A stretch of DNA of 64,000 bases from Ranitomeya imitator (taxonomy: Eukaryota). A program made the position numbers and the translations under genes. This document shows positions 14,101-47,881 of the stretch, in pieces; positions within the stretch are counted from its first letter, which is position 1; each line of letters starts with the position of its first letter. The stretch is from assembly GCF_032444005.1 (NCBI RefSeq), contig NC_091286.1, forward strand, positions 34,844,001 through 34,908,000, given 5' to 3'. The notes beneath the pieces were generated by a model. The model was not told the DNA's origin and did no database searches. It saw only the letters and a list, made by a program, of their open reading frames with translations.

Positions 14101-14599
14101 TATACATATAGACATACAGTACATTAAACAAAGAGTACATACTCACCATTACTTGTCACTTTGTTCCCCGAAGCCAGTGTCACCTATAAAAAAGATTAAA
14201 ATAACAAACAACCAATATACTCCCTGTCCGCAGAAATCCACGAGTGTCCCACGACGATTTCCCGTGCAGAACGGCAGCATCAGCTGATGCGACCGCTCTC
14301 CAGGGGCTCCAGGAACCTAATGACCGGCGAAGGTATCCTTCCGCACTGTATTCCTCCACCGCTATAAAAAATTAGTCCCTAGTCTCACTTTTGGCATTGC
14401 TGTGTGAGAAATTTTCCCACGCAGCAATTGCCATAAAGTGAGACTTTGAACTATAGTAACCTCAGTGATGCACTGCAGGAGCCATTGTCTCCTGTCAGTG
14501 TGTCACTGAGGGTCCTGTAGAGCAGTTACATCACCCGATGTCACTGTTCTATAGGGGAGATCATCGTGAGACACTCGTTATTAATTGGACTACGGCAGA

Positions 14600-17500: not shown

Positions 17501-17725
17501 CGGCAGGCACGCACAGACCCCCGGCAGCCCGCACAGAGCCCCGGCAGCCCCGCACAGAGCCCCGGCAAGCCCGCACAGAGCCCTGGCAGCCCGCACAGAG
17601 CCCCAACAGACCCGTAGAGACCCCCGGCAGCCCGCACAGAGCCCCGGTAGCCAGCACAGAGCCCCGGCAGCCCGCACAGAGCCCCGGCAGCCCGCACAGA
17701 GCCCCGGCAGGCCAGCACAGACCCC
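14600..17725 (+). repeat. 20-21 bp GC-rich minisatellite, right arm (inverted relative to the left arm)
   Basis: (CGGCAGCCCGCACAGAGCCC)n with variant units. Confidence 0.95.
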
Positions 17726-21361: not shown

Positions 21362-23297
21362 GTCCTGACACATCGGATTAGTAGAAAACAGGGACTACTG
21401 ACCGGGGCTGCTTAATTAAAGGTCCTGCAATTCTTTTTGATCATCTTTACAAAACAGGCATTATTTTTACTGTTGTGCTTGGTCCTATACCGCCAAACCG
21501 ATGGTTTCAATAGTTGAAAACTTAGGATAAACACGTCATGACCCAGTGAGCTCTAAATGGGGGTCATGGCCTCATTTCCATCCGCTATAGTGATTGGATG
21601 CGTCTGGGAAACCCATACCGATCAGACACTTGGGGCACATTCTAGAGATATACCCTTAAGGTATAGAGTTGGAGTTCAACTTTTAGGAGAGCTTTGGATA
21701 GGGAGCTACTGGTGCCCCCCCTAAGGTAAATGCACCTATGTCGGGAGATGCTACAGGTGAAAATCAGTGAGCTCAGACTCTTCCCTAAAATAAAGGTGCA
21801 GTTGTCTCCTCAGCCCCTTACTAAAAACATGTCTCCAGCATAATTTCTGCTTAACTCGTCCTCATAAAGTAACCCTAAAGAGATTTCCATTCATGCTGCC
21901 TTTATGGCTGTAGGGGCTTAGACCCTGAATGAATATCAAAAGACTGACTGTCACTTCTAAACAGAAAACTGGTGTGTACAGGTGCTTACTAAGAGTAGCC
22001 ATCTCTATATACTATACCGTGAAAATATGAACTATATGAAATTGGCATTGCATTACTGCTCCAGAAAATAGGAAAAAAAATACTTAGCCCAAAAAATTGG
22101 CCAATTCATGTGTGCCCAGCAGCCACGACAAGGCGATCTTCTGTGCCTGGAACCCAATCTAATGTGACTCCTCTCACAAGCTATAGCGGTTTTAATCACA
22201 GCAGGTTCCTATCTACCCATACAAATGTACCATATAAATGTAGGTTATCAGCCCATGAGAGGAGTCATGTTAAGTTAGGTTCCCAGCAAAGAAGATTGTC
22301 TTGTCATGTCTGCTGGGCACACATGGATTGGCCACTTTATGTGCTAAGTAACTTAGTTTTTTCCAATTTTCTAGAGCCGTAATGCAATTCCAATTTCATG
22401 TTTGCATGTGTGCTCACTCGGCTGCACATGGAGGTAGTCACAGGAACACTGCGGCTTTAAGGATACACTTGGTTTATGCTGCATATAATAAACCAAGTTT
22501 TAAGCACAAAATAAACATGGCCCTCTGGGCAAAACAGCAATTCAAAGCGGTAGCACTATGTGCAGTCCTTGCATTAGTGGGGATCAGCCCACTCAGGGTT
22601 AGCAATGTCATTTAATAAACACCATGTCACGAAGCAAGGTTTAGGAAGACAGGAGATTAGGAATCTGGGCCCCTGAACTGCCCCTCAGGCTGGGGGTAGC
22701 CCTGTCTTTCCTTAACTTGGGGGTGCCCTTGAAGCTAGGGAGGCCCAAGTCACCGACCTGTCCCTGTCTCCTGTTAAACCCTGAACTAAACCCCCAACCC
22801 CCACCCCGGGAGGTGAACAGTGTAAACAGCACCACAAAGCAAATACACAGGAATAAACAATATGAGAGAGAAGGGAACACGATACCAAAAGGTGAATGCA
22901 CAAACTACAAAGAAACAAAACTCAGAACGTAGCTTGTGCACGTCGCTGCAGACTCCACAACACAGATAGTACAGCAACAGAGCTCCAAACACCAGACTTG
23001 GCTGACACCAAGGAGCTGCTACTGCGAGGTTGGTCTCCTAAAAGGACCTGTATAACCAACAGTCAGCTGATGCACCAGAGGTCACAAACATCATCTGACC
23101 CAGCAGCAATGCAATGCAATAACACCAGCAGCCACTGGGGGGGGGGGAGGAAGCTGCATTAACCCCCAATGTCCAGAAAGGAAAAAAGGTTTAAATCAGA
23201 GGGAAACCAGATCTGCCACAGATCCAAACATGGATTGTGACAGTATCCCCCTTTCAATGAGTGGCCTCTGGACACTCAACATCAGACCTCACCAGAC

Positions 23298-24300
23298 CTA
23301 CCTACGGTGAGGATGCCTCGATCCACCAGAGTTCACCTCGTCAGGCACCTGACTCTCAGGTTTATGGCAAACGCGACCTGATGAAAATGCCAGCAACGTA
23401 GGCTCCGGAGGAGCCACAAATCTCCAGAGCGCTGACCTGGGGAATGAGTTGTGTACATGCATAACTGGGGGTAACTCCAACTGAAAAGTCCCAGGGCTGA
23501 GAATGGCCGACACCCGATATGGCCCAATCACCCTGGAACTCCAGGTCCCAGTTGCATACTTCCACCTGATGTTTTTGGTGGACACCCATACGTACTCATT
23601 CACACACAGGTCCGGACGACCTGAACGTTTATTTCCATGCAAACGTTTGCCACAGGACGGAGAATTCTTTGAGGAATTGACAACAGAGGCGTCCCCCTGT
23701 GTCACTACACTCACACCCCCACAATGCTCCGAGGGAATCACCACCCTCTTCTGACCCCTCCTCCTAAGAGGTCTCTGACCCACCGGGTTAACCTGTAGTG
23801 AGGGTAAAGTCTTGCCCCTAGTCCCTGGCAGCACCTCTGCTAACCCCACCGAAGGGGAAGGGGTAGGTTTTAGAGGAACGGCAGAGATCGTAGCTCCTGA
23901 GCAGCAGTCCTTACACGACTGACCCCAGCTGACTACTTCCCTGGACCGCCAGTCTATGACCGGGTTATGTTTTTTCAACCAAGGGAGTCCTAAAACCATG
24001 GGAGTTGGTATGCCCGCCAAGACGTAGCATGATAAAGACTCTTCATGACAAGCCCCTATACGCAGATGTACATTGTCTACGACTTGTGTAATGCTCCCCT
24101 GGCTGAGCGGAGCAGAGTCAATGGCCTGGACGCTTAAGGGTTTCGCTAGCGTCCTACTCATCAGGCCATGGGTCTGGACAAAATGAGCATCCACCAAACT
24201 GACTCCTGCTCCACTGTCCACAAGCACCGGAATATTCTCAGTTACCCCACCAATAACCACCTCAGCAGGTAAGGTACACTGAGACGAAAAAAATTGAGGA
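23298..24300 (-). pseudogene. Gypsy aspartic protease fused in frame to an integrase C-terminal (GPY/F) remnant
   Basis: VLVDSGAG (Asp at 24216-18), MVLGLPWLKKHNPVIDW, then VWVSTKNI...IGPYRV...FQLELP. Confidence 0.8.
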
Positions 24301-25155
24301 AATAAACACACCCTGGTCACCTCCTTCCACACGACCAGGGGGAAGCGGCTCTTTAGATGGAACAGGTACTTTGGCACGCGCTGGGCAGACATTGATAAAA
24401 TGACCGGTCTGCCCACAGTAGAAACATGCCCCCACTCCACGGTGAACCACAGGCAACCCAGTCTGGGAACCAACTCCTCCCACCAGCATGGGTTCGTCCA
24501 CCTGCCCAGGTGTGTCCTCCTCCCTAGCAAGGACTATAGGGGGCACATTTGGTGTATGCCTCTCCCTCAAGCGTCTATCCACCCGGATGGCAAGGGACAT
24601 GGCGGCCTCCAACCACCTGGGGGCTGCGTACTGCACCAGAGTATCTTGTAACCTAGGGGACCAACCCTGCACAAAATGGCTCCTAAGGGTAGGGTCATTC
24701 CACTGTGTGTCAGTGGCCCACCTCCTGAACTCTGAACAGTACTCCTCTGCCGACCGAGCCCCCTGCTTGATCTTACGGAGTCAGGATTCCGACCAGGGAA
24801 ACGCCATCTGGATCACCATACACGTAAAAAACTCATCCTCCGACCGTAGGGATGGTGAACCGGTCGGCAGGGAGAAGGCCCAGGACTGGGGATCACCCTT
24901 AAGAAGGGAAACGATGATTCCCACCCGTTGTTCCTCACTCCCTGATGAACGAGGGCGGAGCCTGAAGTACAACTTGCAGGTCTCCTTAAAAACCAAAAAT
25001 GTATCTCTCCCTCCAGAGAACCTGTCTGGGAGAGATATCTTGCATTCAGGTTGAGCCTGTACCTGAGCCGAGGCCCAAAACCCCAACATTTGCTGCAGCT
25101 GCTGCACCACCTCACTACGCAGCACCTTACACTCCTCGGTGAGAGTCTGTAGCAA
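24262..25155 (-). pseudogene. Gypsy gag with an internal stop (24781-83)
   Basis: ISLPDRFSGG...QRVGIIVSLLKGDPQSWA, AEEYCSEFRRWATDTQWND and CFYCGQTGHFINVC. Confidence 0.85.
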
Positions 25156-26693
25156 TTGGGCAAAGGCTCACCAGAAAAAACAGAACGGTTGGTTATAATG
25201 TCACGAAGCAAGGTTTAGGAAGACAGGAGATTAGGAATCTGGGCCCCTGGACTGCCCCTCAGACTAGGGGTAGCCCTGGCAGAAACTGCATTAACCCCCA
25301 ATGACCAGAAAGGAAAAAAGGTTTAAATCAGAGGGAAACCAGATCTGCCACAGATCCAAACATGGATCGTGACACACCATGTGCACAAACACTTTCCTGG
25401 AGTCCTTCCTCTCCAGACTCTCAGCACTGCTGCCTATGGAGGTCAGCTACTTAAGCTCCAGACCATGTGACCGAGCACATCACTGTGACATCACACAGGT
25501 CCTGTCAGCACACGGTGGTGCCGGCTCTGCAGGTGGAGATAAGGTGGACACCCTCCCACCCACTCTCTCCACATAAACCAGCCCATTTATGGAACTTTAA
25601 CTTAAGCCTCACAACACTTTAGTGTGCTGGAGGAAAATACTCTGGCTTTATATCACTGACGCCATTAAGTGTAGTGACACATATCTCCAGTACTTTACCA
25701 GTTACAGAGTGCTACTTTATTTGTTAGCTAGACCCTGAATGAATCTCAGCCAGAAATCCATTAACATACCAACACATTATTCCGATAATTTCAGGGTGGA
25801 CTTCCCCTTTAAATATCACATGGACAATTAACGGTGGAAAGTTTACAAGTTGTAATTCGCAGACAAAAATCACATATTTGCAGAATAATTCTCTCCCTAC
25901 ACATCTATTTCCACCTGTTTTACTTGGGAAGCCTTCAGGCGGCTCGTTCTTGGATTTTTCCTGCTCCCGCTGTTAACGCCGCGATCAGAGAGAAACTTTC
26001 AGAGTCACATTAAGAATGAAACGCTGCAAATATTCCGGTGAAGGTTATCACAACAAGGACGGCAGATGGGAACATCGAGATGTTTGTTTTCTCAGTAGAC
26101 GCCAAAGTCACAACAAGAGGAAATCAGGACGACGAAAAGGCCCCAGGTGGAGGACGGCGCACACATCTGTGCTGTGCATATCGGCGGTATGGCATCCACG
26201 GAAATATATGGGCCTACACGAAAACTCTGCTGGGGAGATATTCATGGGGGTAAAGTCTACTTAGACCAGGCAATGATCCCTGGGAAAAGGCTATGCTAAG
26301 AGACTCTTCAAAGAGGCAGAGACCCGGCTCTCTAGTGCCACCTATAGGGCATAGCAATCCTAAATGTCAGTATTGACCATGTGCCCCCATGGTGATGCTC
26401 ACCCTACTGTGAGAGTGCACCATCGCTACATGGAGCGGGCTCAGCACCTGAGCATAGTCTGTACAGTGCATGTGCCAGCCGTGTTCTACAGATGGCACCT
26501 GAGTAGGTGGCTCATCCCTCGCGGCTGTTCGACAGCCGCAACACATGCAGGGATTTCCTGATTGTTAGCCAGTCCCTGCATGTGTTGCAGCTGTCGAACA
26601 GCCACGATACATGCAGCCGCGTGGACTCGAACACATTATTCAATCACTCAAGCATGCTTAGATAACACCTTATCCGAGCACATTCGCTCATCA

Positions 26694-29459: not shown

Positions 29460-29603
29460 TCATTCATTCAGCTTGAAACGAATCTTTGGGAAAAGCCGGA
29501 AAGCATTATGGGCAGTCGCCTCGCAGACTGTGTCGGATGAAAGGCCCTTCACGCGAGCAATGTATTCGCAGGGGATGAAGATGTTGGATGGTGTATTCCT
29601 TTC
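29460..29603 (-). CDS. TATDN3: TATDN3 exon 10 (terminal, includes stop)
   Basis: ttttag| acceptor; ERNTPSNIFIPCEYIARVKGLSSDTVCEATAHNAFRLFPKIRFKLNE*, versus human VRNEPWNISISAEYIAQVKG...ALKLFPKL. Confidence 0.93.
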   Translation of the reverse strand, partial: ERNTPSNIFIPCEYIARVKGLSSDTVCEATAHNAFRLFPKIRFKLNE

Positions 29604-30624
29604 CTAAAATGTAGAGCATGATGGCATTAGGAATAAATGTATCACTAAAGGCTCATAATAACCGACAAATGAGCAATCAAAAGAAAGAGATCAAACAAGC
29701 TTCATTTACAGAAAAATAAAAAAGTTTCAGGACCGAGAAAATGAAGACACAATTTTTTTTTTTTAATTTAGCGATTTTGTAGCAACTAAAAAACTAAATA
29801 AAAAATAAATACATTGGGTATCACTGTTATCCTACTGACCTGGAGAACCATTAGGTCAATGAACGCCATAAAAACACAATCCCCAAAAATCAATGGTGGA
29901 ATTGCGATGTTTTTTTTCACCATTTTTTTTTCAGTATATTACAACCAAAATTATTATTATTAGCGACTTGAATAATAAAGAAAATTTTACAATACATTGG
30001 TTTTGCTGCAATCATTCTGACTTGGAGAATTCTGTTACCATTTTTAATTTTTTTTTACATCACCAATGAACGCCTTAAAAACAAATAATAAAAATAAATG
30101 AATAATAGCGGAACTGCGGAAACTTTGAATTTTTTTGCTGTTTTCCATACATTATATAGTTAAATTCATGGTGTCAATCAAAACTGCAACTCGTCCCCTC
30201 CCCTCCCACCCCAGCCCCCCAAAAGCCTTTAAATGGCGACCTCAATGGAAAAATAAAGTTATGGCTTTTGGAAGTAGGGGAAGAAAAAAAAAAGAAAAAT
30301 GTCCGGATTATGAAAGAATTAAACGAGCATCAATCTACAAGTGTATAGCTTATCGAAGCTCGTTTATAAGCAGAAATCGGACACTTTAAGTGAGTATTAT
30401 GTGTGAGAGAACTGGTCAAGTAGCAATCCCTGAATATAATGGTACTTTTCTAATTTCTCCTGGCACCATATAATACTCCAAGACGTCCAGGGAAGACTTA
30501 AGGTTTCCTTCCATTGCCTGTCACATATACATCCTCTATACCTCCACTCATGGTCGATGTATCCTCCGCTCTGTAGTGTCACTTCTGCATCTATGTACAC
30601 AGCAGCTACGGTCTTCTTCATACC

Positions 30625-31260
30625 TATCACGACACAGCTGTCGGGTGACCTGGGACCAGGGGCTCCTTCCCTGTCTCTAACACAAGGGGGCGCCCTAGCT
30701 TGCCCTATTTCCTGGGTTACTTCTGAAGGTGAAGATGCCGGCGCCTCCACCCTTGCCTTATCTCCTGAGTTAGCCCTCTGTCTGTTCTCTTCCCCCATCC
30801 AGGGAAGAGAAGCACTACTGTGCACAAAAAAAGGTTAACAGAAAACTCCAGACATACAAACTATTCACTCACATATAACAGAGGAATGCATCGGGGCGTG
30901 GAGGTAGGGGTATAAACCAAAATAGAGGAGGATAGGAAATTACCAAACATACAAACCAAGCAACAGTCACAGATAACTCCTCCAACTCTCCTCATATATG
31001 CTTCTCTCCCACCATTAGCCATGGAGCAAATGCTAGCTCTGACAAGGATTTGTACCAGAGCCCAGATTATAAAGGGGAAAGGAGTGGATCTCTGAGCTCA
31101 GCAGTGAGCACAGGGATTTCCAACATGGTCAATTAACTCCTGTTCTGCCAGAAGGAATAAACACATTTTAAAGGAGAAGTGCTTCTTCTCAGCACCGGAA
31201 TAGGAGCAATCAGACGCTGCGATCTTCTGGCTCCACACTGTCGCGGTAACCCCCGTGACA
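30625..31260 (-). mobile_element. Solo LTR (636 bp), Gypsy-type
   Basis: Termini TA(G)TCACG ... CGTGACA; 5-bp TSD ATACC (30620-24) / GTACC (31261-65); orientation inferred from base-composition similarity to the 22.6-kb element's LTR. Confidence 0.8.
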
Positions 31261-31264
31261 GTAC

Positions 31265-31345
31265 CTGTTTGTCTGGTCCGAGAGCCGGTGAATCGGTCTC
31301 CAGGCAGATGTTCTCCATTCGGATCCGTTTTATCAGCTTCTCTCT
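31265..31345 (-). CDS. TATDN3: TATDN3 exon 9
   Basis: 81 nt; [27 protein letters not shown] (TatD CLETDSP motif); ttccag| acceptor; donor CAG|GTACTG abuts a solo LTR. Confidence 0.95.
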
Positions 31346-31949
31346 CTGGAATTTGTGCAAATTCAGAATAAAATCAATTCATTATAATAAAATAATAACA
31401 GAATATTACACATCACAAAGGGTGTCTGAAAACGTATTCACACAGCCAAAACCAAGAGGAGATCCCAGCCCAAAATAGGAAAACGTTTAGGATCTACACC
31501 AGTTTTGGGTAGAAAATACACAACTGGAATACAGATCAGAAACACGATCATCAGTAATTATGGACTCCTGTTATAGTATCCTGCCCCACCATCCCTGAAC
31601 CAATTTCTTCTCATCTTGGAGACCACCTTTAATTAATCTGGAATAATTTGAGTTACCTGATCATTATTTGCAACTGCAGGGGGAAAGGAGAAGAAGTATC
31701 CGGCCTGCACTCCTTCCAACGCAACGGAGGGGCGACCAGCAAAATTGTGCAGTAATACTTTCTCAGCACCTAGAAATCAACAATCAGCACCAAAAATTAA
31801 GTTCAACTTCTTGATAAGGAGACCAAAATGAAAATGCAGGAAATATATAAAGCAGAAGTTTAAAGGGGTAGTCCACTACTGGCCAGCCCCTTCTAAAAAT
31901 GTCAGCAATTAAGAACATTACACCTTATGGACCAGCACCATTCCTGAAA

Positions 31950-33453
31950 TGACGGCACTGTGTTTCCAGAACGGTACCCGAACCCCATTCGAATGGGGGA
32001 CCCGAATATTCGGTGTTTCCCATGCTGTCGTCTGTGTGACAGCGCGAGAAATACCGACTCTGATCAGCGTAAGGTCGTTGCTGCCAGTCAGAGTGCTGCG
32101 GTTCCCACGCTGTCACCTAAGTGCCGGTCACAGGTGTCGGCTGATAAGAGCACTACTTCCATGGATTGCATGATGCGACTGCTCAGCCGTGAATCCAGGA
32201 GACACTGAGCTGAGCGTGAGAACGCAGCTTCAGTGACCAGCGGTGATGTCATTGAGGTTACCGCCGGTCAGAGGCAGCGGATCTCAGGCTCAGCTCAGTG
32301 TCTCCTGGATTCACAGGTGAGCGGTCACATCATGCCACCGCTCAGCCATGCAATCCACATACAGCCTCTTCATGGGACATATTGATTATTGGCAGACAGG
32401 TGAGGAATATGGTGTTTTATTATTTTTAATTTTACTTTTATGAATGGATGAAAGAGGGTGGGGAGTATTTATTTCAATTAAATGACTTTTTTCTGTGTGT
32501 ATCTGTATTTCATTTTCACTATGGGGTTAGTAATGGGGGCGTCTTATAGATGCCTCTCCATTACTAACCCATGGGCTTGATGACAGCTGACAATACAAAT
32601 CGTACATCAACCCCATAAATATTACCCCACTTGCCACCGCACCAGGGCAAGTGGGAAGAGGGGTTGCCAAGCTCCAGAATTGGCGCATCTTATGGAAAGC
32701 TGATGTTCTTAGTCTGTGAGTGTGCCAATATCCATGGCCTTTTCCTAGGCTATTAATATCAGCCCCCAGCTGTCTGTTTAGCCTTTGCTGGTTACTGAAT
32801 ATAGGGTAGGGGGGACCCCACGACAATATTTTTTTGGGGGGTCTCCCCTATAATAACCTGTAAAGGTTAACCAAACAGCTATGAGCTAACATTAATAGCC
32901 TGGGAACCTTTATGAATATTGGCCTGTTTCCAGAACATTAACATCAGCTCTCGGCTGTTGGCTTTCCCTCAGCTGGTTATGAAAATTATGGGGGACCCCA
33001 CACCGTTTTTTTTTCATTTATTTTTTATTTATTAACAAGAACAGTAAGGTCACCTGACTTCATAGTAGTTATTTCTCTAGCTTTGCAAGTGCCAATGCCA
33101 GATTGATGAACGGTCGCGAGTCCGGCACTTGGCATTCCAACATTCATTAGTCCAGCACTCCAGATACCGTGAGACCCGGTGGCTGTGAGTTCAGGTAACA
33201 GAGTTCGTAGCCTCCGGGTCTTCTGGCAGCTGCGAGGCTCAGAAACCTCATGGGAACAAGTGACATTTTAAGGTTACTGGAGTTTAAAGCAGCTGGAATA
33301 CCTGTAGGCTGTGAACTAAGGTTACCTAGGGTGTGTATTTTACTGTAACAGTAGCATGGACTTTAGGAAGAAGTCAGTGTTCGGGGTCCGTGAACAGACA
33401 CGAGGTGTTCGGTATAGACCCTGAACTTCACCATTTGGGTTCGCCAATCACTA
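31950..33453. mobile_element. Degenerate non-autonomous hAT-type element
   Basis: Right TIR GGTTCGCCAATCACTA; internal inverted repeats (~32200 versus ~32290); left end not resolved. Confidence 0.5.
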
Positions 33454-34178
33454 AAGAAGAATTTAGACATCTCGTCTAATTCAATATTGTAATTCAATAG
33501 TTTTTTGCTATGTTCCTACCTTGTTCTTTAAGAAAACTTATAGTTTGCCTTCCTGCGGATCGAGAGTGGACATTTCTGTAAAAAAAAAAATATATATATA
33601 CTTTGAGAAATTGATGGCAATGTTCTTTGAGTTCAACACCTTCCTAAATGCCAGATTCCCTGGCGTTCAGACGATTGAGGAAAAGGCCCCTGTAGAATGC
33701 CATCTATAAGAAGTAAGGTGGCTTATCCCCTTTATCCGCTTTATGGTTCCAGAGATACGGACCTTTTTATTTAGTGCTACGTGTGCTATTCTTTACCATG
33801 GGGGTGTGGCTCAGGATCCTCTGGGGCGTGTCTTCAGGTTGCTCTGCATAATTATCTTGTTAGACACGCCCCCTTCTAAAGACCATAAAATTAGAACTAA
33901 ATAAATAAGTCCGACATCTTTGGAACCTTATGGAGGATATAAGAACAACATCAAAAAGCACAAAACACTCAGGGGAGCAGTGGGAATAGAAGAGGGGCAA
34001 AAACTGTTAACCGGTCTCCTTTAAGTGACCTTACGCAGAGATAGAGCAGATCTTCATTTACCTTTACGGGGGTCACAGAAGCAGCCTAGCACACTTGGAT
34101 GGCTGTTTTGTAACTCCTATAGAAGCGAATTGAGAGACATTTCTTTCAGGGTTGGGGACGCTTGACAGGGCTCACGAC

Positions 34179-34649
34179 TAGGGTTGAGCGACCTTGACTT
34201 TTTTAGGGTCGAGCCGGGTTTCGCGAAACCCGACTATCTCAAAAGTCGAGTCGAGTGAAATCGGCCGATTATGGCGAAAAGTCGAGGATCGACCGAAACA
34301 CGAAACCCAATGCAAAGCCAATGGGAATTTTTTTTTTTTTTTTTTTTTTCCTCTCTCTCTCTCTCTCAAAAGAAAAGCTGGTGTTACACAGTGCAAATAG
34401 CTACAGCGCACAAGCGACAACATGGCGATAGGCGTCCACGCCCCTAAGACCTATGTCATCACTCTGCCCACGCTCCTTCATTGGCTGAAAAAAATGGCGC
34501 CAAGCGCGTCATGCGAAACGCGACTTTGGCGCGAAAGTCGCGTACCGCATGGCCGACCCCACACAGGGATCGGGTCAGGTTTCATGAAACCCGACTTTGC
34601 CAAAAGTCGGCGACTTTTGAAAATGAACGATCCGTTTCGCTCAACCCTA
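34179..34649. mobile_element. hAT MITE
   Basis: TIR TAGGGTTGAGCG ... CGCTCAACCCTA; perfect 8-bp TSD CTCACGAC. Confidence 0.92.
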
Positions 34650-35430
34650 CTCACGACCCCCATTCTGGAGATAAGCAGTGGTCCTAGAGGTGGGGTCTGC
34701 ATTTATGTTGTGGATATGCCATAAATATCTGAGAAGGGGAAAGAAACGCTGTAAAAAGGCAAACTATTAGTACTGGCCCTGCCGTATACTGACACTGGTA
34801 GGTCCAATCGTTTCGCAATGTCCAGTTGTATCTGAAAGACCTTCAGCTGCTCTTCTCGCTCCTTAGAGGTGGGAGTGAGCCAGGGGGTGAAGTCCAGCCC
34901 AATCTGTACAGAAGGAAAACGTCCGGAAATTTGTTAGTGGCACAGATAGTAAATAAATGTGCCTATTTTCCTATTATTTGATATTTGTGGACACTAAGCC
35001 CCCCATTTCAGGCTGGAATGAGGGGGCTGTGGTGCTCTCCTAATCAGTTTACCTATATATCTTCTGCTGACTCTGATCTGTAGAGACGCCAGCTCTTTAG
35101 AAAACAGATGGGGTCTTAGCACTTACTTCCTATGACATGCCGGGTGTACATTGATATAATAAAACTCAGAATGGACCAAGCTTCCTGCTGAATATACTAT
35201 ACCTTTCTTAAAGGAAATGTTCATCTTTACTGGAATTTTAATATATCATATTATATTGGAAAGTTTTGTCTTTTTGTCTCGATAAATAATAAAAAAAATT
35301 AGTTACAAGCAGCCACCACTAGGGGGAGCTCACTGTATATAAATGTATACAGCTTTTGAAGGACTCAAATCTGTATCTATTGAGCTCCCCCTGGTGGCGG
35401 CTACAGACAGCGTGAAATCCCTTGCATGTA

Positions 35431-35750
35431 AGGCTACGTTCAGATTAGCGTTGCGCGCCGCTGCGTCGGCGACGCAACGCACGACGCACGAAAAAACGCG
35501 TGCAAACGCACGCAAAAACGCTGCGTTTTGCGACGCGTGCGTCGTTTTTTGACGAAAATCGGACGCAAGAAAAATGCAACTTGTTGCATTTTCTTGCGTC
35601 CGACGCTAGCGTCAAAAACGACGCACGTGTCGGAAAACGCAACAAGAAAAACGCATGCGTCCCCCATGTTAAACATAGGGGCGCATGACGCGTGCGTCGC
35701 CGCTGCGTTTCCCGACGCAGCGTCGGGAAACGCTAATCTGAACGTAGCCT
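35431..35750. mobile_element. Harbinger-like MITE
   Basis: TIR AGGCTACGTTCAGATTAGCG ... CGCTAATCTGAACGTAGCCT. Confidence 0.85.
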
Positions 35751-35816
35751 TAATCAGTGATGCGGGCAATAGTAGGATTTTATAAACGTGAGTACAACTG
35801 ATTATCTCAAAACAAC

Positions 35817-35818
<2 letters not shown>

Positions 35819-35882
<64 letters not shown>
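35819..35882. repeat. (TA)n microsatellite
   Basis: Direct reading. Confidence 0.95.
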
Positions 35883-35884
<2 letters not shown>

Positions 35885-38112
35885 GACTGAATGTGCAAAA
35901 GTGAGTGATTTAACCCTTACTTCTCCGATGCCGACAAGGTGATCCTTGTACTTTTCAAACTGTTCAAGAGCAGGCTCCAGATCCTGCAATCAAAAGAAGA
36001 AAATGAAAGGTATATTCTAAGTATTAGAATATAGAGTTGCAGTAAACAAACAAACAAACATATACGGTAACCTAAGATTGTCTATATAGATGTATTCAAA
36101 CTGTGCAATCAAACTGGAAAATCGTGATAACTGCAAAATGTTTTCCAGTGCAGGGCTTGATAGAGAGATACAAAATCAGGGTGTGATTACCTGCAATGTC
36201 GCACTGCGATACCCGTCTGCTGTACTCTGGATAGGGTGCACGCCAAAACATGGCATCACGTAACTGGGATACCTGGAAAACAGGCACAATGCCTAAATGC
36301 ATCCATTTATGTGCCACTGGGTATGTCATAAATGTGCTACTAAATGGGGGGGCAGCCCGATAGAATTATATGGCGTTGCCACGCTCAGGTTGGCAGTCCC
36401 GCGGCCACTCTGTGCATTGTGGTCTGTGCTTGGACGTCTGCATGAGCCCTTACTGAGCCGCATTCTCGAGGTAAGGTGCCACATCTCTCACATAGTTATA
36501 TATAGGAGATAAGAATATCCCTTTAAGGGCTGGTGCAAACATTTCTGAAATCTCACGCACATTCTGCTGCAGAACAGCAGCGCGTCAATTCGTTCTGCAT
36601 TTTCGCAACGTTTTTCACCCATTCAAGTGAATGATGGGGAAAAAAAAAAAAAACGCATAAAAAACGCCCCTCTTTTAAGCAGCATGCTTTCGGTGCAGAA
36701 ACGTGCGTTGCAAAAACTTAACAAGTGCACGTACTCAAAGCGTTTTTTTTCACATTTGGAGAATGTCAATTTTTTCAGCATTTTTCACCAGTTCAAATAA
36801 ATGGGAAAGAAATGCAAGTGAAAACACATAAAAAGCTGAAAAAATGCACGTATTTTACGCACAAAACAACAGGCGCAAATACTGAACCTAGTCTATGTGT
36901 ATCAGCAGCTACAATGTATCACTGAAGGCAAAATGTATCAGTCTCCATCGCAAATGATTCAATCACTGGAGTTTGTCTCCACCAGATACAATTGTAGCAG
37001 CTGTGACCAGTATTCGGGCATGTTCCCTACTCTGCCGCACTGTTATGTCACGTGAACGCTGCAGCCAATCAGTCGCCAATGGGCTGCAATTCTCACACTT
37101 CCCTTGGACATGCGAGATTGACCAGAAGTAGAACTGCAGCCCATTAGTGACTGATTGGCTGCAGCGCTGATGTGACATAACAATATCACTCAAGTATTGA
37201 TAGAGTGGGGCCAATGCGAGAGGTATAAGCTTTTCTTCTTTTGCTCGAGGGGCTCGGACATTTAAGAAGGGGTTTTCCAAGTAGTGAACAATCCCTTTAA
37301 AGGTTTTTTCCTATCTTTAAAAATATATATTAGTGCAAGTAATGCCTTTTTAAAATTTCCAGCCGTGATTGAGATATTACCGCGTTTCTTTTGTTTACAG
37401 TCCGTTGCCTTAGAGACCGACCGCCGCATCGATGCTAGACAGCAGAACATGCGCAGCGCTTACAAGCTGTTGTCTCTTGATCTTGTAAGTGCTATTTTGA
37501 TACCGGTCAGGATTACAGGAGCGCACTGCTACTTCATAATCCTGGCCAGCTTTAGTACAGAGTTTACAAGACAGACAGTAAGCAGTAAGCAGTGGTCGGT
37601 CTCCTAGGCAACATTCTGTAAACAAAAGAAATGCGTTCATATCTAAAAAAAAAAAGGCTGCAAATTTTAATAAGCGGTAAATTGCAAAAGTGTTTTTACA
37701 AGCCCTGTCCGACACTATCCGTCTATGAAGACGGTGAACGTTATAAAATATAAAGTTTTACTTTCTAATATTAGAAACAAACCTCTCTGATAGATGTAGG
37801 AGACTTTCCAACTCTCCGGCGCGTTCTGTAACCGATACGAGCGCCCGAACTCCTCCCTGGAAAATACAGCAATGCCGTAAAATACAATGGATTTAGGCAT
37901 TTAGAGGGGGTTTCTATAATTAAGTAAACAAATGTCATTTTTTTTTTGTATATTTCAGGAGGTACCGTATATCATTTTTCAGTTTAATTTATATATCAAT
38001 TCCTCGCCATTTTCTCGGTGTGCTGTGACTTAATGGAAACCTATATTCTTTGGAGAAATTCATCGAAACTGTTTTTTCCTGAGTCATGATTAAAGGTCTG
38101 CAGCATTCTTAA

Positions 38113-38531
38113 AGGGAATCTGTCCGCAGATTTTTGCTTCCCCACCTGAGAGCAGCACAATGTAGGGGCTGAGACCCTGATTCCAGTGATATATCACTTG
38201 CTGGTCTGCATGCTATCATTTTGATACAATCACAGTTTTCTCTGCTGCAATTCTAGCAGAGCTCGGAATTCTGAGCCCTGCATAACCCCGCCCACATCAC
38301 TGATTGGCCACTTTCTGTCACTATACAGTGCAGACAGAAAGCGGCCAATCAGTGCTGGGGGCGTGGTTGGACACCTAGTCCTGTAGTGATAATCTCCTGC
38401 TGATAAAACACTGATTTTATTGCAACCGCAACACACAGCCTTGTAAGTGACACATCGCTGGAATCAGGGTCTCAGCCTCCACATCATGCTTCTCTCAGAT
38501 TACAAATCAAAAATCTGCAGACAGATGCCCT
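38113..38531. mobile_element. TTAA-type (T2/Kolobok-like) MITE
   Basis: TTAA|AGGGAATCTGTC ... GACAGATGCCCT|TTAA with long internal inverted repeats. Confidence 0.85.
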
Positions 38532-38789
38532 TTAATGAATCTGGTGCATCTTTCAGGATGTCCATGCGCTGAAATCAGGAGTTGACTCTAGCTATGAGGA
38601 AGAGTACATTTTGCCTATAACTTATGTCACTGTTTGCCATAAATTATAGTGAATCTGTCGTGACGGGACTGATGTAAAGAGTCACAATTTTTTTTTCTAT
38701 AACTGTACATCGAATCAAAATTTTCCAGAAAACTCGAGAGAAATATGCAATTAATTCCCCCTTAGTGCTTCCAACTGGAACACCCCCCA

Positions 38790-38942
38790 AATAATAATAA
38801 AAAAATAAAGAAATAAAATAAATAATAATAATAAGATAATAATAAAATAATAATACAAATAATAATAAAATAAGGAAATAAAATAAATAATAATATAATA
38901 ATAATACAAATAATAATAATACTAATAAGTTAATAATAATAA
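38790..38942. repeat. (AAT)n-rich low-complexity tract
   Basis: Direct reading. Confidence 0.9.
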
Positions 38943-39311
38943 TATGCTCTACCTACATTTCTTGATCTTTCCAGAATTTCCACTATATCCTGCAAAAGCA
39001 AGATATTTGTGTTACCACGACCGTTCTCACGGAGAACCCACACAGCAGGAACTCAAGTCTTCAGTTACTCTTAGGTGTTAAATCTGTTTATTTCACCATT
39101 TTCTGACTTCAAAGAAACATATGTGAATTGTGACTAGGGATGACAGGAGACAATGGATCGCAGTGAGAAGCATTTGTTTGCCTTTTTCTTTTATTTCCTG
39201 ATGAGACACAGAGCTCTTCCCTAGGAAATATATTTGTAAAAAAAGAAGCCTCATGGGAATTGATTGATGGTATACGGTAAGTGCACTGCATGGCGGTATT
39301 CCTGACCTTAA

Positions 39312-39900
39312 CCCTTTCACGTTGCAACCAATTTCCGCTTTTGCAATTCCAATTTTTCCTCCCCGAGCCATAACTCTTTTATTTTTCTGTCCACATAGAC
39401 ATATGAGGGCTTGTTTTTTTGCAGGAGGAGTTGTACTTTTAAATGACGCCATTTATTTTACCACACGGTGTACTTGAAATTTGGGGAAAAAAAAATCCAA
39501 ACGTGGTGAAATTGTGAAAGAAATTGCTTTTTTGGGAATTGTTCTTGCGCTGTATATTTTGCGGTAACAATGATTCTCCTCATCGATACGATTATGGCGA
39601 CACCCAACATGTCCAGTTTTTTTTTCCATTATTTTAGTACTGAGAGAAAAAAATCTGAAGCTTGCAAAAAAAATTTTGGGGGGTTGTTTCGCCATTTTTT
39701 TTTTTCTTTTTTTTAGACCGGCAACATTTTTATTTTTCGGCTGGTGAATCTGTGCGACGGGTTATATTTTTTGCGGAGCGTGACAATGTTTTTATTAGCG
39801 CCATTATGGGATAGATGTGACTGTTTGATCGCTTGTTACAGCATATAACCGGTGCAGTCGCTCTGATTAACGTTACCCACGGTCTGGGCAGCATTAATCA
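39312..39900 (+). mobile_element. piggyBac-like non-autonomous element fragment
   Basis: TTAA|CCCTTTCACG start; related T-rich fragments at ~29650-30330 and ~55560-56130; right end unresolved. Confidence 0.45.
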
Positions 39901-41116
39901 CCCGACAAGCTGACATTTGGGGTCTTTGAGATAAGTCCGCCACCCACCGCTTGTGTATCAGTCCCTGACCGCCTCTCCTGGTTCCCCTCTCTATAAGGCT
40001 GTGTTCACTCTGAGCTTTTTTTTTTACATATCAAAAACATATCAAAAAAATTACCATCCTTCTAATGAAAATGTATTGAAAAAAGTTGGAGAATTTTGTT
40101 TCCCAAAGTGTTTTTTTTTTTTTTTTTTTTTGCAGCCTTGTGATTGGACGGTGCCCGATTTGGAAGTTTTTTTTCTATAATTTCGAGCAAATGCCGAGCG
40201 CTAGCCATTTTTCAACCAGGAAAAGTGATTAAAGCCACTAAAAATGATTGAACAAGTGAACAGCAAAGTGTTTCTACACTATACAGAGGCTTTGGAGAGC
40301 GGTGTAAGCGCCTTTATCTTAGATTTTAGGATCTATAACCAGCATTCCTCATAGTGAGCAGTGTTCTTATAATAAGAGCACCCCCATAACCAGTGTCTGC
40401 CCCCCACTGTCAGTACTGGCTCTGTTCCAGTCCTCTGCCCTTTCAGGGGTCCTGGACAGCGCCACTTATTTGGTGCACATTTCAGGAGGGTTGCCAAACA
40501 GTGAAGCAGAGCAGACCACAATATAATACAGCAGTCCATGTATCACCGTAGGTATGAGGGGAAGCAAGCCACATCCATCACTAGAGGCCCGGGACAGGAT
40601 GTCTCCAGCGCTGGTCTACAACAAAATGGCCGCCGCTGGAGTCCGGTAGTTATCAATGCGTTCTACAGACCAGTGAGGAGGGGACATAACTGCACCTCGG
40701 TGATTATTACCTGGGAGAACTCCTCAGCGGTCATATGGCAGTGACAGTCCACATAGCGACCCGCCTGACCCGCACCCAACATGGCGGCCGCTGCCTTCAG
40801 TCACTCAGGCAGGGGCCGGGACTAGAGGCAGAGATCTGCACCAATCACGTGTTATATCAGGACATCTGCCTGGGTGTAACGTCTCATTGTACTTTAGCCA
40901 ATAGCCAACTCTTGAGGCTACAGATGTCACAAGAGAGTAAAATGTCACACAACATTATTTTTTCTTTTTAACACGCCTCCATCACATCCACAGTGCCCCC
41001 TTAAAGGGATGGTTTAGTACTGGAAACCGACTGTCAATGTCGCTCCTTCACTGAGTGCTGTGTCCCCTGCTATTAGTAGCCCCAAATGATGTTGCTTACA
41101 GTGTACTGGCCAACGT

Positions 41117-41443
41117 GATGCTCCATACAGTATAATGACCGCACACGATGCTGGGTACAGTATAATGGCCCCACACGATGCTGGGTACAGTATAATGGCC
41201 CCACACGATGCTGGGTACAGTATAATGGCCCCACACGATGCTGGGTACAGTATAATGGCCCCACACGATGCTGGGTACAGTATAATGGCCCCACACGATG
41301 CTGGGTACAGTATAATGGCCCCACACGATGCTGGGTACAGTATAATGGCCCCACACGATGCTGGGTACAGTATAATGGCCCCACACGATGCTGGGTACAG
41401 TATAATGGCCCCACACGATGCTGGGTACAATATAATGGCCACA
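41117..41443. repeat. 30-bp tandem repeat, ~10.5 copies
   Basis: (TATAATGGCCCCACACGATGCTGGGTACAG)n, near-identical units. Confidence 0.97.
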
Positions 41444-41687
41444 TATGGTTACCCCACCCCCATCATTGCCTTCTCCATAACTACACACACACACCTTTCA
41501 CCACGCACCCTCGCAGCAGCCGGCAGCTTCCACTCCCACGGCGCTGAATGGTGTCATCCAGCTGCGCCGCTGACTGCTCACGTCGCTGCATCTGTGATAC
41601 GCCACTGATAAAGACCTCCGTGTCTCCTGTGCCAGTCCGTGTCAGAGCGAGGAGCAACATCTGCTCCGATCCGACTCAGCCAGCGTC

Positions 41688-43935
41688 TGCTCCGTACACC
41701 TCGTACACACACAACTCTGCTCCATACACCTTGCACATGCGGCTCCACTCCGTACACCTCGTACACACACGGCTCCTCTCCGTACACCTCGTACGCACAC
41801 GGCTCCTCTCCGTACATCTCGTACGCACACGGCACCGCTCCGTACACCTCGTACACACACGCCTCCTCTCCGTACACCTCGTACACACACGGCTCCGCTC
41901 CGTACACCTCGTACACACACGGCTCCGCTCCGTACACCTCGTACACACACGGCTCCGCTCCGTACACCTCGTACACACACGGCTCCGCTCCGTACACCTC
42001 GTACACACACGGCTCAGCTCCGTACACCTCGTACGCACACGGCTCCTCTCCGTACATCTCGTACGCACACGGCACCGCTCCGTACACCTCGTACACACAC
42101 GCCTCCTCTCCGTACACCTCGTACACACACGGCTCCGCTCCGTACACCTCGTACACACACGGCTCCGCTCCGTACACCTCGTACACACACGGCTCCGCTC
42201 CGTACACCTCGTACACACACGGCTCCGCTCCGTACACCTCGTACACACACGGCTCCGCTCCGTACACACGGCTCCGCTCCGTACACCTCGTACACACACG
42301 GCTCCGCTCCGTACACCTCTTACACACAAGGCTCCGCTCCATACACCCCGTACACACGTCTGCCCTCCATACACCTTGCACATGCGTCTCCTCTCCGTAC
42401 ACCTCGTACACTCGGCTCCGCTCCATACACATTGCACACGCTGCTCCGCTCCGTATACCTTGCACACACACGGCTCCGCTCCGTACACCTCATACACACA
42501 CGGCTCCTCTCCATATATCTCGTACACACATGGCACTACTCCGTACACCTCGTACACACACGGCTCCGCTCCATACACATTGCACACGCTGCTCTGCTCC
42601 GTATACCTTGCACACACACGGCTCCGTACACCTCATACACACACGGATCCTCTCCATACATCTCGTACACACACGGGACCACTCCGTGCACCTCGTACAC
42701 ACATGGCTCCGCTCTATACACATTGCACACGCTGCTCCGCTTCGTATACCTTGTACACACATGGCTCTGCTCCACACACCTCGTACACACGTGGCTCTGC
42801 TCTGTACAACTCGCACACACGTGGCTCTGCTCTGTACAACTCGTACACACGTGGCTCCGCTCCGAACACCTCGTACACACACGACTCTGCTCCATACACC
42901 TTTCACACTCTGCTCCGATCCGCACACCTCTTACACACATGGCTCCGCTCTGTACTCGTCTTACACACACGACTCTGCTCCATACACCTTTCACACGCTG
43001 CTCCGTACACCTCGTACACACAGCTCCGTACACCTCGTACACACGGCTCCGTACACCTCTTACACACACGACTCTGCTCCATACACCTTTCACACTCTGC
43101 TCCGATCCGCACACCTCTTACACACATGGCTCCGCTCCGTACTCGTCTTACACACACGACTCCGCTCCATACACCTTTCACACGCTGCTCCGTACACCTC
43201 GTACACAGGAGGCTGTGCTCCGTACACCTCATGCACACGGCTCCGTACTCATCTTATACACACGACTCCGCTCCATACACCTTTCACACGCTGCTCCGTA
43301 CACCTCGTACACAGGAGGCTGTGCTCCGTACACCTCATACACACACACGACTCCGCTCCATACACCTCTTACACACACACGACTCCGCTCCATACACCTT
43401 TCACACGCTGCTCCGTACACCTCGTACACAGGAGGCTGTGCTCCGTACACCTCATGCACACGGCTCCATACTCGTCTTACACACGCGACTCCGCTCCATA
43501 CACCTTTCACACGCTGCTCCGTACACCTCGTACACAGGAGGCTGTGCTCCGTACACCTCATACACACGGCTCCGTACACCTCTTACACACACACGACTCC
43601 GCTCCATACACCTTTCACACGCTGCTCCGTACACCTCGTATACAGGAGGCTGTGCTCCGTACACCTCATGCACACGGCTCCATACTCGTCTTACACACAC
43701 GACTCCGCTCCATACACCTTTCACACGCTGCTCCGTACACCTCGTACACAGGAGGCTGTGCTCCGTACACCTCATACACACACATGACTCCGCTCCATAC
43801 ACCTTTCACATGCTGCTCCAATCCGTAGAAGTCGTACACACGCGGCTGTACTCTGTACACCTCATGCACACGGCTCCGCTCCATACACCTTTCGCACGCT
43901 GCTCCGATCCATACACCTCGTACACACACGACTCT
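41688..43935. repeat. Complex ~30-bp minisatellite with higher-order blocks
   Basis: (CTCCGTACACCTCGTACACACACGGCTCCG)n diverging into longer composite units. Confidence 0.93.
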
Positions 43936-45774: not shown

Positions 45775-46346
45775 TATTTAATCATATACAGGGAAAAACG
45801 GTTCCCTCGTCATCAGTGGCTTACATCGGTGTTTTTACGGATGGATAAAGAAAGAAAAAAAAGGACAAAGCTTCTCCTATACTTTGCAATGTTTCATAAA
45901 ATTTATATCCTTTTTTTTTTAATTCAGATGAGGCAAAAATATAAACAAAATGCAGGTCACACGAGATAAAAACAGTCATTTTTTTTAGTAAATGAAACAA
46001 ATGCTTCTGTTCTAGCTCTGCAAATCCATTAGTCACGTCAGTGGTCGGACAGGAGCAGGAGAGGCGCCATTTATCTGCCAGATTGGCGAGACGTCACATC
46101 TCTAGGGGCTGAAGACCCGCCCTGATCCGATTGTTCTGATAACACGTTTTGGCATTTTAAGGCTATACACACAAAGTTTTCTTTTGCATCAAGTTGCTTC
46201 CAAAAAGCTTGAAAGACTCTTTCTATTAATTTCTATTGTAAAAGTTTTAGATCTTTTTCCACTTAAAGTTTTAATGTGGAATTTGTTTTTTCTTACATGT
46301 ATGTATTTAGGCTGAAAACATTTTTTCAGTTGGCTTTTATTAAAAA

Positions 46347-47881
46347 CTAGATGGTGGCCTGATTCTAACGCATCAGGTATTCTAGAATATGCATGTCCAC
46401 GTAGTATATTGCCCAGCCACGTAGTATATTGCCCAGCCACGTAGTATATTGCCCAGCCACGTAGTGTATTGCCCAGCCACGTAGTATATTGCCCAGCCAC
46501 CTAGTATATTGCCCAGCCACGTAGTGTATTGCCCAGCCACGTAGTATATTGCCCAGCCACGTAGTATATTGCCCAGCCACGTAGTATATTGCCCAGTCAC
46601 GTAGTATATTGCCCAGCCACGTAGTATATTGCCCAGTCACGTAGTATATTGCCCAGCCACGTAGTATATTGCCCAGCCACGTAGTATATTGCCCAGCCAC
46701 CTAGTATATTGCCCAGCCACGTAGTATATTGCCCAGCCACCTAGTATATTGCCCAGCCACGTAGTATATTGCCCAGCCACGTAGTATATTGCCCAGTCAC
46801 GTAGTATATTGCCCAGCCACGTAGTATATTGCCCAGTCACGTAGTATATTGCCCAGCCACGTAGTATATTGCCCAGCTACGTAGTATATTGCACAGCCAC
46901 CTAGTATATTGCCCAGCCACGTAGTATATTGCCCAGCCACGTAGTGTATTGCCCAGCTACGTAGTATATTGCACAGCCACCTAGTATATTGTCCAGCCAC
47001 CTAGTATATTGCCCAGCCACCTAGTATATTGCCCAGCCACCTAGTATATTGCCCAGCCACGTAGTGTATTGCCCAGCTACGTAGTATATTGCACAGCCAC
47101 CTAGTATATTGTCCAGCCACCTAGTATATTGCACAGCCACCTAGTATATTGCCCAGCCACCTAGTATATTGCCCAGCCACCTAGTATATTGCCCAGCCAC
47201 CTAGTATATTGCCCAGCCACCTAGTATATTGCCCAGTCACGTATGTAACAGGTTAAAAAAGACTTAAAATAAAAAAATAAACATATACTCCCCTTCCGAG
47301 GGGCGCCTTGTAGTCCTGGCACCTGTTTGCGGTGCACGCAGCAGCTTCCGGTCCCAGGGTTGGTATGACCGCAGGACCTGTGATGACGTCGCGGTCACAT
47401 GACCGTGACGTCATGGAAGGTCCTTCTCGCATAGCATCCTTGGCACCGGAACCTGCCGCTTGCACAGAGAGGGCACGACAGCGCAGGGTGAGAATAACGT
47501 TTTTTTTATTATTATTATGATTTGTAACATTAGATTTTTTTACTATTGATGCTGCATACGCATCATCAATAGTAAAAAGTTGGGGACACACAGGGTTAAT
47601 AGCTGCGTTAATGGAGTGCGTTACACCGTGGCATAACGCCGTCCATTAACGCTGCCATTAACCCTGTGTGAGCGCTGACTGGAGGGGAGTATGGAGCGGG
47701 CGCTGACTGCGGGGAGTAAGGAGCAGCTATGTTGCCGCCGGACTGTGGCTGTCGCTGATTGGTCGTGGGCGTTTTGCCACAACCAATCAGCGACTTGGAT
47801 TTCCATGACAGACAGAGGCTGCGACCAATGAATATTCGCGACAGACAGACGGAAGTGACCCTTAGACAACTATATAGTACA
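46347..47881 (-). mobile_element. Non-autonomous Helitron
   Basis: Minus strand: A|T(G)TACTATATA ... hairpin CCTGAT-8nt-ATCAGG ... CCACCATCTAG|T; A/T target and no TSD; 5' end reads TG rather than the canonical TC. Confidence 0.75.
46397..47242. repeat. 20-bp tandem repeat inside the Helitron, ~42 copies
   Basis: (GTAGTATATTGCCCAGCCAC)n. Confidence 0.97.

What the first reader, a model, noticed from the sequence alone, without database searches (positions are those of the whole stretch)
30616..31270. Solo LTR inserted inside the TATDN3 exon 9 splice donor, duplicating it
Seen (minus strand): exon 9 ...AAACAG|GTAC-[TGTCACGG...636 bp...TCGTGATA]-G|GTATGAAG. The 5-bp TSD (GGTAC/GGTAT) is the last exon base plus intron +1..+4. 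The exon now uses a chimeric donor whose +5/+6 come from the LTR's TG (CAG|GTACTG), while the original intron continuation forms a second donor (TAG|GTATGA) 641 nt downstream. Inference: the ancestral site was CAG|GTA(C/T)GA, and the one TSD mismatch fits CpG decay. Using the distal donor would add VLSRGLPRQ...QNRS and a stop at 31133, well upstream of the last junction, a built-in poison-exon/NMD switch that removes the C-terminal TatD helices. The gene otherwise looks intact, so the LTR terminus appears to have rescued the donor.
Basis: partly seen in the sequence, partly recalled or inferred. Interest (0 to 1): 0.7.

Follow-up and report, generated by a model that had tools for sequence, protein, structure and literature searches.

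The report
Old Gypsy LTR beside working donor
An old retrotransposon end-repeat sits four bases into the last intron of a poison frog's tatdn3-A gene and copied the splice signal, but transcript assemblies from three studies join the exons at the original position, so it is likely a tolerated fossil rather than a gene switch.

Summary
The anatomy is real. 30625-31260 is a 636-bp solo LTR of a Ty3/Gypsy family (76 other copies examined, 77-85% identical), in the same sense as the gene, with a 5-bp target duplication (GGTAC/GGTAT) over the exon 9 donor of tatdn3-A, the divergent one of two tandem TATDN3 genes. The functional story is not supported. Contigs from 3 of 4 runs laid (three studies) join exon 9 to exon 10 at the proximal donor; none shows the distal joint, and one runs through the distal site unspliced. 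The LTR did not rescue the donor: duplicated host bases keep -3 to +4, and the LTR adds non-consensus +5/+6. One TSD mismatch is common in the family (12 of 46), so CpG decay is unproven. A second species carries the insertion, so it is old and shared; its copy appears to end in CA, giving a stronger distal site than this genome's TAG|GTATGA. Contigs drop rare isoforms, so a minor NMD isoform is not excluded. The scan noted a like case before in another genome (e1-9962447). Verdict: tolerated insertion, new member of a known kind.

The parts
29460..40782 (-). tatdn3-A, 10 coding exons, 275 aa, Group II (HxH) TatD nuclease
   Evidence: A GT-AG exon model translates to exactly P0012; names; tree
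31265..31345 (-). Exon 9 (81 nt, phase 0 end)
   Evidence: both flanking joints seen in contigs of X3, X5, X11
31259..31267 (-). Proximal donor CAG|GTACTG, in use; +5/+6 are the LTR's first two bases
   Evidence: joint 29602-31264 (ends CT..AC with cut +1) in 3 of 4 runs; U1 duplex -7.1, within the gene's range -4.2 to -9.2
31261..31265 (-). Left TSD copy GGTAC (last exon base plus intron +1..+4)
30625..31260 (-). Solo LTR of a Ty3/Gypsy family, likely Tf1/sushi type, sense to the gene
   Evidence: 41 scored matches of 6472 first-look candidates; same LTR flanks gag-RT-RNaseH-integrase remnants in L036 and L031
31133..31135 (-). First in-frame stop on read-through from exon 9
31156..31161 (+). 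AATAAA, on the strand opposite to the gene and to the element's gag-pol
   Evidence: antisense in 62 of 63 other copies, sense in 0 of 63
31067..31071 (-). TATAA box, predicted LTR promoter facing exon 10
   Evidence: function not tested
31033..31043 (-). 11-nt site 28 nt after the TATA, predicted transcript start and self-priming partner
   Evidence: 10 of 11 complementary to the 11 nt after the 5' LTR of L008; 8 of 11 for L036
30620..30624 (-). Right TSD copy GGTAT
30618..30626 (-). Distal donor-like site TAG|GTATGA, no use seen
   Evidence: no joint in 4 of 4 runs, X5 contig 30215-30673 passes through unspliced; U1 duplex -5.6, tenth of 100 GT sites ranked
29460..29603 (-). Exon 10 (last coding exon, 47 aa, C-terminal TatD helices)
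   Evidence: matches 2y1h residues 227-270, E 8e-10

Best explanation
This is an old solo LTR of a Ty3/Gypsy retrotransposon lying four bases into the last intron of tatdn3-A, and it is likely tolerated because the 5-bp duplication left the first seven bases of the splice donor in place and that donor is still used. Shown: family membership, 5-bp duplication, sense orientation, use of the proximal donor, presence in a second species. Inferred: a full element integrated between +4 and +5 and later collapsed to a solo LTR by LTR-LTR recombination; the proximal donor wins because it closes an 81-nt exon while the distal site would need a 722-nt exon (exon definition, established knowledge); the LTR has no AATAAA on the transcribed strand to cut the pre-mRNA short; the distal copy of the donor has since drifted (TAG here, likely CAG in the second species). 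The LTR slightly weakens rather than rescues the donor.
For: Proximal joint in contigs of X3, X5, X11 = 3 of 4 runs, three studies; distal joint in 0 of 4; X5 contig runs through the distal site unspliced. Ten-exon model gives the annotated 275-aa protein with HxH, GEIGLD, NVHSR, LETD intact. Proximal donor is mid-range among the gene's 9 donors; distal is weaker. Family: 34 of 55 solo-like copies 5/5 TSD, 12 of 55 4/5; sense AATAAA in 0 of 63. Old: best other copy 85%; organism B DNA contig 30169-30661 bridges the LTR boundary. PMC3088655 (passages): fixed TEs within 20 bp of exons lie mostly near donors.
Against: Contigs drop rare variants and an NMD target would be rare, so absence of the distal joint is weak; 58 joint rows were hidden. 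The runs are RNA by guess or unlabelled. Contigs in X3, X5, X11 cover unique parts of intron 9, and X3 and X17 contigs read from exon 9 into the LTR, which fits pre-mRNA or DNA but also retention. Sense LTRs this near an exon are the class most depleted in mammals (PMC3088655). In organism B the distal site appears to be CAG|GT, scoring as well as the proximal one (-7.2 or -7.1), and no RNA of organism B was listed. The U1 duplex score is a crude proxy.
Confidence: 0.75

Rival explanations
1. The LTR weakened the donor (loss of +5 G) enough to slow splicing of the last intron, so a fraction of transcripts retain intron 9 and encode a protein cut after residue 228 plus 43 LTR-derived residues; a mild, unregulated cost.
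For: Contigs read from exon 9 into the LTR in X3 (31058-31293) and X17 (31205-31293) and cover unique intron 9 sequence in X3, X5, X11. +5/+6 are non-consensus.
Against: Pre-mRNA or DNA in the libraries explains the same contigs; X5 also covers part of intron 7 (31801-32000). Contig depth cannot rank forms. The donor scores mid-range for this gene.
Confidence: 0.13
2. Poison switch: the distal donor is used in some conditions, making a 722-nt exon 9 with a stop 509 nt before the last junction, which NMD would degrade, tuning tatdn3-A level.
For: Geometry meets the 50-55 nt rule (rule from established knowledge). The site is a valid GT with +5 G, and appears to be CAG|GT in organism B.
Against: Distal joint in 0 of 4 runs; one contig passes through unspliced. 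No protein with the extension found (weak). The -3 base differs between species, in the weakening direction here. Eight other unused GT sites of intron 9 score better than the distal one.
Confidence: 0.06
3. LTR-promoter exon: the sense LTR starts transcripts near 31043 that splice from the distal donor to exon 10, giving a short chimeric RNA.
For: TATAA at 31071 and a predicted start 28 nt on, facing exon 10; donor at the LTR's end.
Against: Needs the same distal joint, not seen. In exon 10's frame the LTR end reads two stops, so no fusion protein here. Copy is 15-23% diverged from the others examined.
Confidence: 0.04
4. Assembly artefact or allele private to one animal.
For: Very repetitive 5.96-Gb genome.
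Against: Boundaries bridged by contigs of X1, X3, X5, X17 and of organism B run X18.
Confidence: 0.02

Closest known systems
Fixed intronic LTR elements within 20 bp of splice donors (Zhang, Romanish, Mager 2011, PMC3088655; passages read)
   Same: Fixed TE next to an exon on the donor side, gene still spliced
   Different: Frog, Ty3/Gypsy rather than ERV; sense orientation, the depleted class in mammals; the TSD overlaps the donor itself
Tf1/sushi group (V-clade) Ty3/Gypsy chromoviruses (PMC6317226 and PMC3601003; passages read)
   Same: TG..CA LTR family, gag-RT-RNaseH-integrase order, SH3_Tf2-1 domain, purine tract before the 3' LTR, likely self-priming
   Different: Chromodomain and RT tree not tested; conserved AATAAA lies on the strand opposite to gag-pol, whereas PMC3601003 describes a clear AATAAA near the 3' end of Sushi LTRs
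Introners and TE-derived introns that co-opt a splice site from the TSD (PMC11282704; passages read)
   Same: A TSD duplicates splice-site bases and makes the insertion silent at mRNA level
   Different: No new intron is made: the LTR lies inside an existing intron and brings no acceptor; introners are mostly DNA transposons
Poison exons / unproductive splicing with NMD (established knowledge; only a search listing seen)
   Same: An alternative donor would put a stop far upstream of the last junction
   Different: No use of the alternative junction seen, no conservation of its -3 base, no regulation shown
Human TATDN3, Group II TatD (PMC10085689; passages read; PDB 2y1h)
   Same: HxH motif and the Asp of LETD; TIM-barrel nuclease with AP-endonuclease and 3' exonuclease activity in the human enzyme
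   Different: The gene here is tatdn3-A, a long-branch paralogue (58% to tandem tatdn3-B, 56% to tarsier TATDN3); tatdn3-B groups with amniote and fish TATDN3. Its activity is untested

Membership tests
Solo LTR of Ty3/Gypsy retrotransposon | Dispersed copies with the same boundaries | tested here: met
   76 distinct other copies, 63 with both ends recognisable, 77-85% identity
Solo LTR of Ty3/Gypsy retrotransposon | TG...CA termini | tested here: met
   Family: TG 55 of 63, CA 57 of 63. This copy TG...TA (TA in 2 of 63 others); organism B's copy appears to end CA, one contig at depth 4.7
Solo LTR of Ty3/Gypsy retrotransposon | Short TSD of family-fixed length | tested here: met
   5 bp: 34 of 55 perfect, 12 of 55 one mismatch; this copy 4/5
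Solo LTR of Ty3/Gypsy retrotransposon | Same LTR flanks gag, RT, RNase H, integrase in Gypsy order elsewhere | tested here: met
   L036: two LTRs around Retrotrans_gag (E 6e-4), RVT_1 (3e-4), RT_RNaseH (4e-5), SH3_Tf2-1 (8e-8, the only one above Pfam's cut-off); L031: rve (3e-5) about 470 nt before the LTR. All are broken fragments
Solo LTR of Ty3/Gypsy retrotransposon | No internal region at this locus | tested here: met
   Exon on one side, unique intron on the other; one match only in the window
Tf1/sushi (V-clade) chromovirus | Self-priming: 11 nt after the 5' LTR complementary to the transcript start | tested here: inconclusive
   10 of 11 in L008, 28 nt after TATA; 8 of 11 in L036; L054's best match lies elsewhere
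Tf1/sushi (V-clade) chromovirus | Chromodomain after integrase; RT phylogeny | not tested
   Only stop-to-stop fragments of at least 130 codons were scanned; SH3_Tf2-1 found; no RT tree built
Introner / TE-derived intron | Element is removed as a new intron with its own donor and acceptor | tested here: not met
   The observed joint removes the whole 1661-nt intron; tatdn3-B has an intron at the same position
Poison exon / unproductive splicing | Stop more than 50-55 nt upstream of the last junction | tested here: met
   509 nt
Poison exon / unproductive splicing | Alternative junction is used | tested here: inconclusive
   0 of 4 runs against 3 of 4 for the proximal joint; contigs drop rare forms
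Poison exon / unproductive splicing | Isoform rises on NMD inhibition or is regulated | not testable with these tools
   No raw reads or NMD-inhibited runs listed
Group II TatD (TATDN3 family) | N-terminal HxH and metal-site motifs | tested here: met
   HCH at 14, GEIGLD 107, NVHSR 146, LLHNF 169, LETDSP 216 in P0012; group definition from PMC10085689; PF01026 on homologues

The most novel reading that the evidence does not exclude
The LTR's CA end plus the duplicated G rebuilt a full CAG|GTA(C/T)GA donor 641 nt downstream, as good as the chimeric one left at the exon, creating in one step a competing unproductive splice choice for tatdn3-A; it is still live in poison frog species that keep CA and was tuned down in this lineage by a single base change, giving a natural two-species test of how a TE-born NMD switch arises and is silenced.
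Probability: 0.07. Interest if true: 0.55.

Novelty: new member of a known kind. Interest (0 to 1): 0.2.

Why it matters
As it stands, little: a tidy example of how a sense LTR can be fixed four bases from an exon because the TSD keeps the donor and the LTR lacks a sense AATAAA. It would matter if the distal donor were used, because the CA/TA difference between two close species would let one measure the birth and decay of a TE-made unproductive splice site with existing RNA-seq.

Tried and rejected
Empty site: not found; the only second species listed carries the insertion and no relatives' genomes are held, so the ancestral +4 base stays open. tatdn3-B's donor at the same intron is CAG|GTATGG, a faint hint for T, too distant to weigh. 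Idea that the C at +4 came from the element's own purine-tract side (5 of 6 such flanks end TAC before TG, 4 in GTAC): 0 of 12 eligible solo TSDs show that pattern, though L036's TSD (ACAAC/ACAAT) does; not supported. One search counted the window's own copy and missed the purine-tract flanks; its counts were replaced. The RT hit in L033 lies upstream of a 5' LTR and may belong to another element; not used. Protein search with the read-through peptide: no hit, weak. No RNA holder on record was listed; RNA status is a guess. No RNA contig covers 31393-31574 in intron 8 while intron 9 is partly covered: not taken as evidence. X20 showed no joint at either intron, and no piece on exons 8-10 among those listed. 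L015's donor-like TSD GGTAA: no evident exon upstream. Paper searches for a TSD-duplicated donor by an LTR and for LTR poison exons listed no direct precedent; listings and abstracts' openings only, library incomplete, no supplements opened. MaxEnt/SpliceAI and Repbase/Dfam are not available.

Full report
Observation. On the minus strand exon 9 ends at 31265 (AAACAG), followed by GTAC, a 636-bp segment from 31260 (TGTCACGG) to 30625 (TCGTGATA), and GGTATGAAG. GGTAC at 31265-31261 and GGTAT at 30624-30620 match at 4 of 5 positions. Read-through from exon 9 adds 43 codons and stops at 31135-31133.

The element. A search of the own genome gave 41 scored matches out of 6472 first-look candidates. 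Two more searches with other copies brought the set to 76 distinct other copies, 77-85% identical to ours, 63 with both ends recognisable (13 dropped from the terminal counts for that reason, and 8 more set aside from the TSD count because they adjoin internal sequence). Of 55 solo-like copies 34 have a perfect 5-bp duplication and 12 one mismatch; 4-bp and 6-bp registers give no such signal. Ends are TG in 55 and CA in 57 of 63; ours ends TA. Of 12 larger stretches fetched, L036 has two copies of the LTR around fragments of gag, RT, RNase H and an SH3_Tf2-1 domain on the LTR's strand, and L031 has an integrase core just before the LTR (only SH3_Tf2-1 passes Pfam's cut-off among these). Six copies have a purine tract just before the TG. 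So the segment is a solo LTR of a Ty3/Gypsy family, and it lies in the same sense as the gene. In L008 the 11 nt after the 5' LTR are 10/11 complementary to a site 28 nt after the TATA box, as expected for self-priming Tf1/sushi elements (PMC6317226, passages); L036 and L054 fit less well, so that assignment is likely, not shown. AATAAA occurs on the sense strand in 0 of 63 copies and on the antisense strand in 62 of 63, so the gene's pre-mRNA meets no canonical poly(A) word in the LTR.

The gene. A ten-exon GT-AG model (40782-29460) translates to exactly P0012, a 275-aa protein named by its source as Ranitomeya imitator TatD DNase domain containing 3. The window holds a second family member upstream, named tatdn3-B. 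In a tree of 26 of the 73 proteins held, tatdn3-B groups with amniote and fish TATDN3 while the LTR-bearing gene belongs to a long-branch frog clade named tatdn3-A (100/100; midpoint root only). HxH and the other metal-site motifs are intact, and relatives are 86-98% identical. Human TATDN3 is an AP endonuclease and 3' exonuclease (PMC10085689, passages); tatdn3-A activity is untested.

Which donor is used. Four runs were laid. Contigs of X3, X5 and X11 (three studies; RNA by guess or unlabelled) show the joint 29602-31264, that is exon 9 proximal donor to exon 10, and the exon 8-9 joint; X20 shows neither. None shows a joint from 30624. An X5 contig (30215-30673) runs through the distal site unspliced. 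In one search X17 pieces end at 29602 and 31264, fitting the same joint, but 58 joint rows were hidden there. Contigs drop rare variants and an NMD substrate would be rare, so this shows that the proximal donor works and is the form seen, not that the distal one is never used. X3 and X17 contigs also read from exon 9 into the LTR, and X3, X5, X11 cover unique parts of intron 9; pre-mRNA, DNA or retention all fit.

Strength of the sites. By duplex energy with the U1 5' end (motif recalled, crude proxy) the proximal donor scores -7.1 kcal/mol, within the gene's range of -4.2 to -9.2; the distal TAG|GTATGA scores -5.6 and ranks tenth of 100 GT sites (the used donor and intron 9). The LTR supplies T and G at +5 and +6, where the consensus has G and T, so it costs the donor its +5 match; positions -3 to +4 are host or duplicated host bases. 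'Rescue by the LTR' is therefore the wrong description: the duplication left the donor's core in place. Using the distal site would need a 722-nt exon against 81 nt; that short exons and proximal sites are favoured is established knowledge, not tested here.

Age and second species. DNA run X1 (organism A; may be the assembly's source) bridges both LTR boundaries. DNA runs X15 and X18 (organism B, one sample, about 4-6% different in the introns) also carry the insertion: an X18 contig (30169-30661) bridges the distal boundary by 37 letters, and an X15 contig enters the LTR by 10 letters from the exon side (too few to count as bridging). At 30626 all X18 depth (96.7 of 96.7) reads G, so organism B's copy appears to end CA like most of the family, making its distal site CAG|GT, which scores -7.1 to -7.2. 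That rests on one orthologous contig at depth 4.7. It suggests that the distal site began as strong as the proximal one and that the weaker TAG form arose later in this lineage; a single change at a position that differs in 6 of 63 other copies' terminal dinucleotides needs no selection.

Mechanism committed to. A Gypsy element integrated between +4 and +5 of intron 9, duplicated G|GTA(C/T), later collapsed to a solo LTR (inferred), and has been tolerated because the proximal donor still closes the short exon and no sense AATAAA interrupts the transcript (0.75). Rivals: mild retention of the last intron (0.13), poison switch (0.06), LTR-promoter exon (0.04; no fusion frame), artefact (0.02).

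Comparison with what is known. In mammals fixed TEs within 20 bp of exons are rare, mostly near donors, and mostly antisense for LTRs (PMC3088655, passages); this is a frog example of the rarer sense class. Co-option of splice bases from a TSD is described for TE-derived introns (PMC11282704, passages), but no new intron is made here. Searches listed no paper on this locus or on an LTR-duplicated donor acting as an NMD switch; the library is incomplete and no supplements were read. An earlier scan note (e1-9962447) describes a like case in another genome and judged it ordinary; I did not check that locus, only the paper it named. Verdict: real, ordinary, interest 0.2.

Noticed in passing
window about 48504-59389, minus strand: Second TATDN3-family gene (tatdn3-B) in tandem upstream of tatdn3-A, 58% identical, same intron position after exon 9 (donor CAG|GTATGG); it, not the LTR-bearing gene, groups with amniote and fish TATDN3. 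The long-branch tatdn3-A clade is well conserved in frogs and uncharacterised.
   Followed up: partly
LTR family, e.g. window 31156-31161 (+) and 62 of 63 other copies: The family's conserved AATAAA lies on the strand opposite to gag-pol; none of 63 copies has one on the sense strand. How the element polyadenylates its own RNA is unexplained.
   Followed up: partly
window 22625-25374: A second, related-looking LTR element with two LTRs (the right one internally deleted), perfect 5-bp TSD CACCA/CACCA and a short internal region; purine tract on the minus strand, AATAAA on the plus strand.
   Followed up: no
window 31320: The window encodes Arg (IRMEN) where other frogs have Pro; runs X1, X15 and X17 read the Pro codon, so this is a rare allele or assembly error. 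P0012 also has Arg for the His of VTEHAG, not checked in runs.
   Followed up: partly
P0020: Phyllobates terribilis tatdn3-A isoform X3 ends two residues after exon 9 (GPDRQIC), an annotated truncation at the same intron by a different 3' end.
   Followed up: no
window 8900-10500, 12990-17650, 41050-43810, 46257-47300, 49448-49987, 52980-55000: Long tandem arrays with 20, 30, 31, 36, 40 and 90 nt units; the 20/21-nt array at 13-17.6 kb occurs in both orientations.
   Followed up: no
window 56568-56903 and 63527-63841: Two near-perfect palindromes (167-nt and 154-nt arms, 97% complementary, 2 and 7 nt apart), MITE-like.
   Followed up: no
L035:907-5217 (-) and L041:1-3516 (-): Long open frames (1437 and at least 1172 codons, 96% identical DNA) of another Gypsy-like family near copies of this LTR, indicating a much younger family in the genome.
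   Followed up: no
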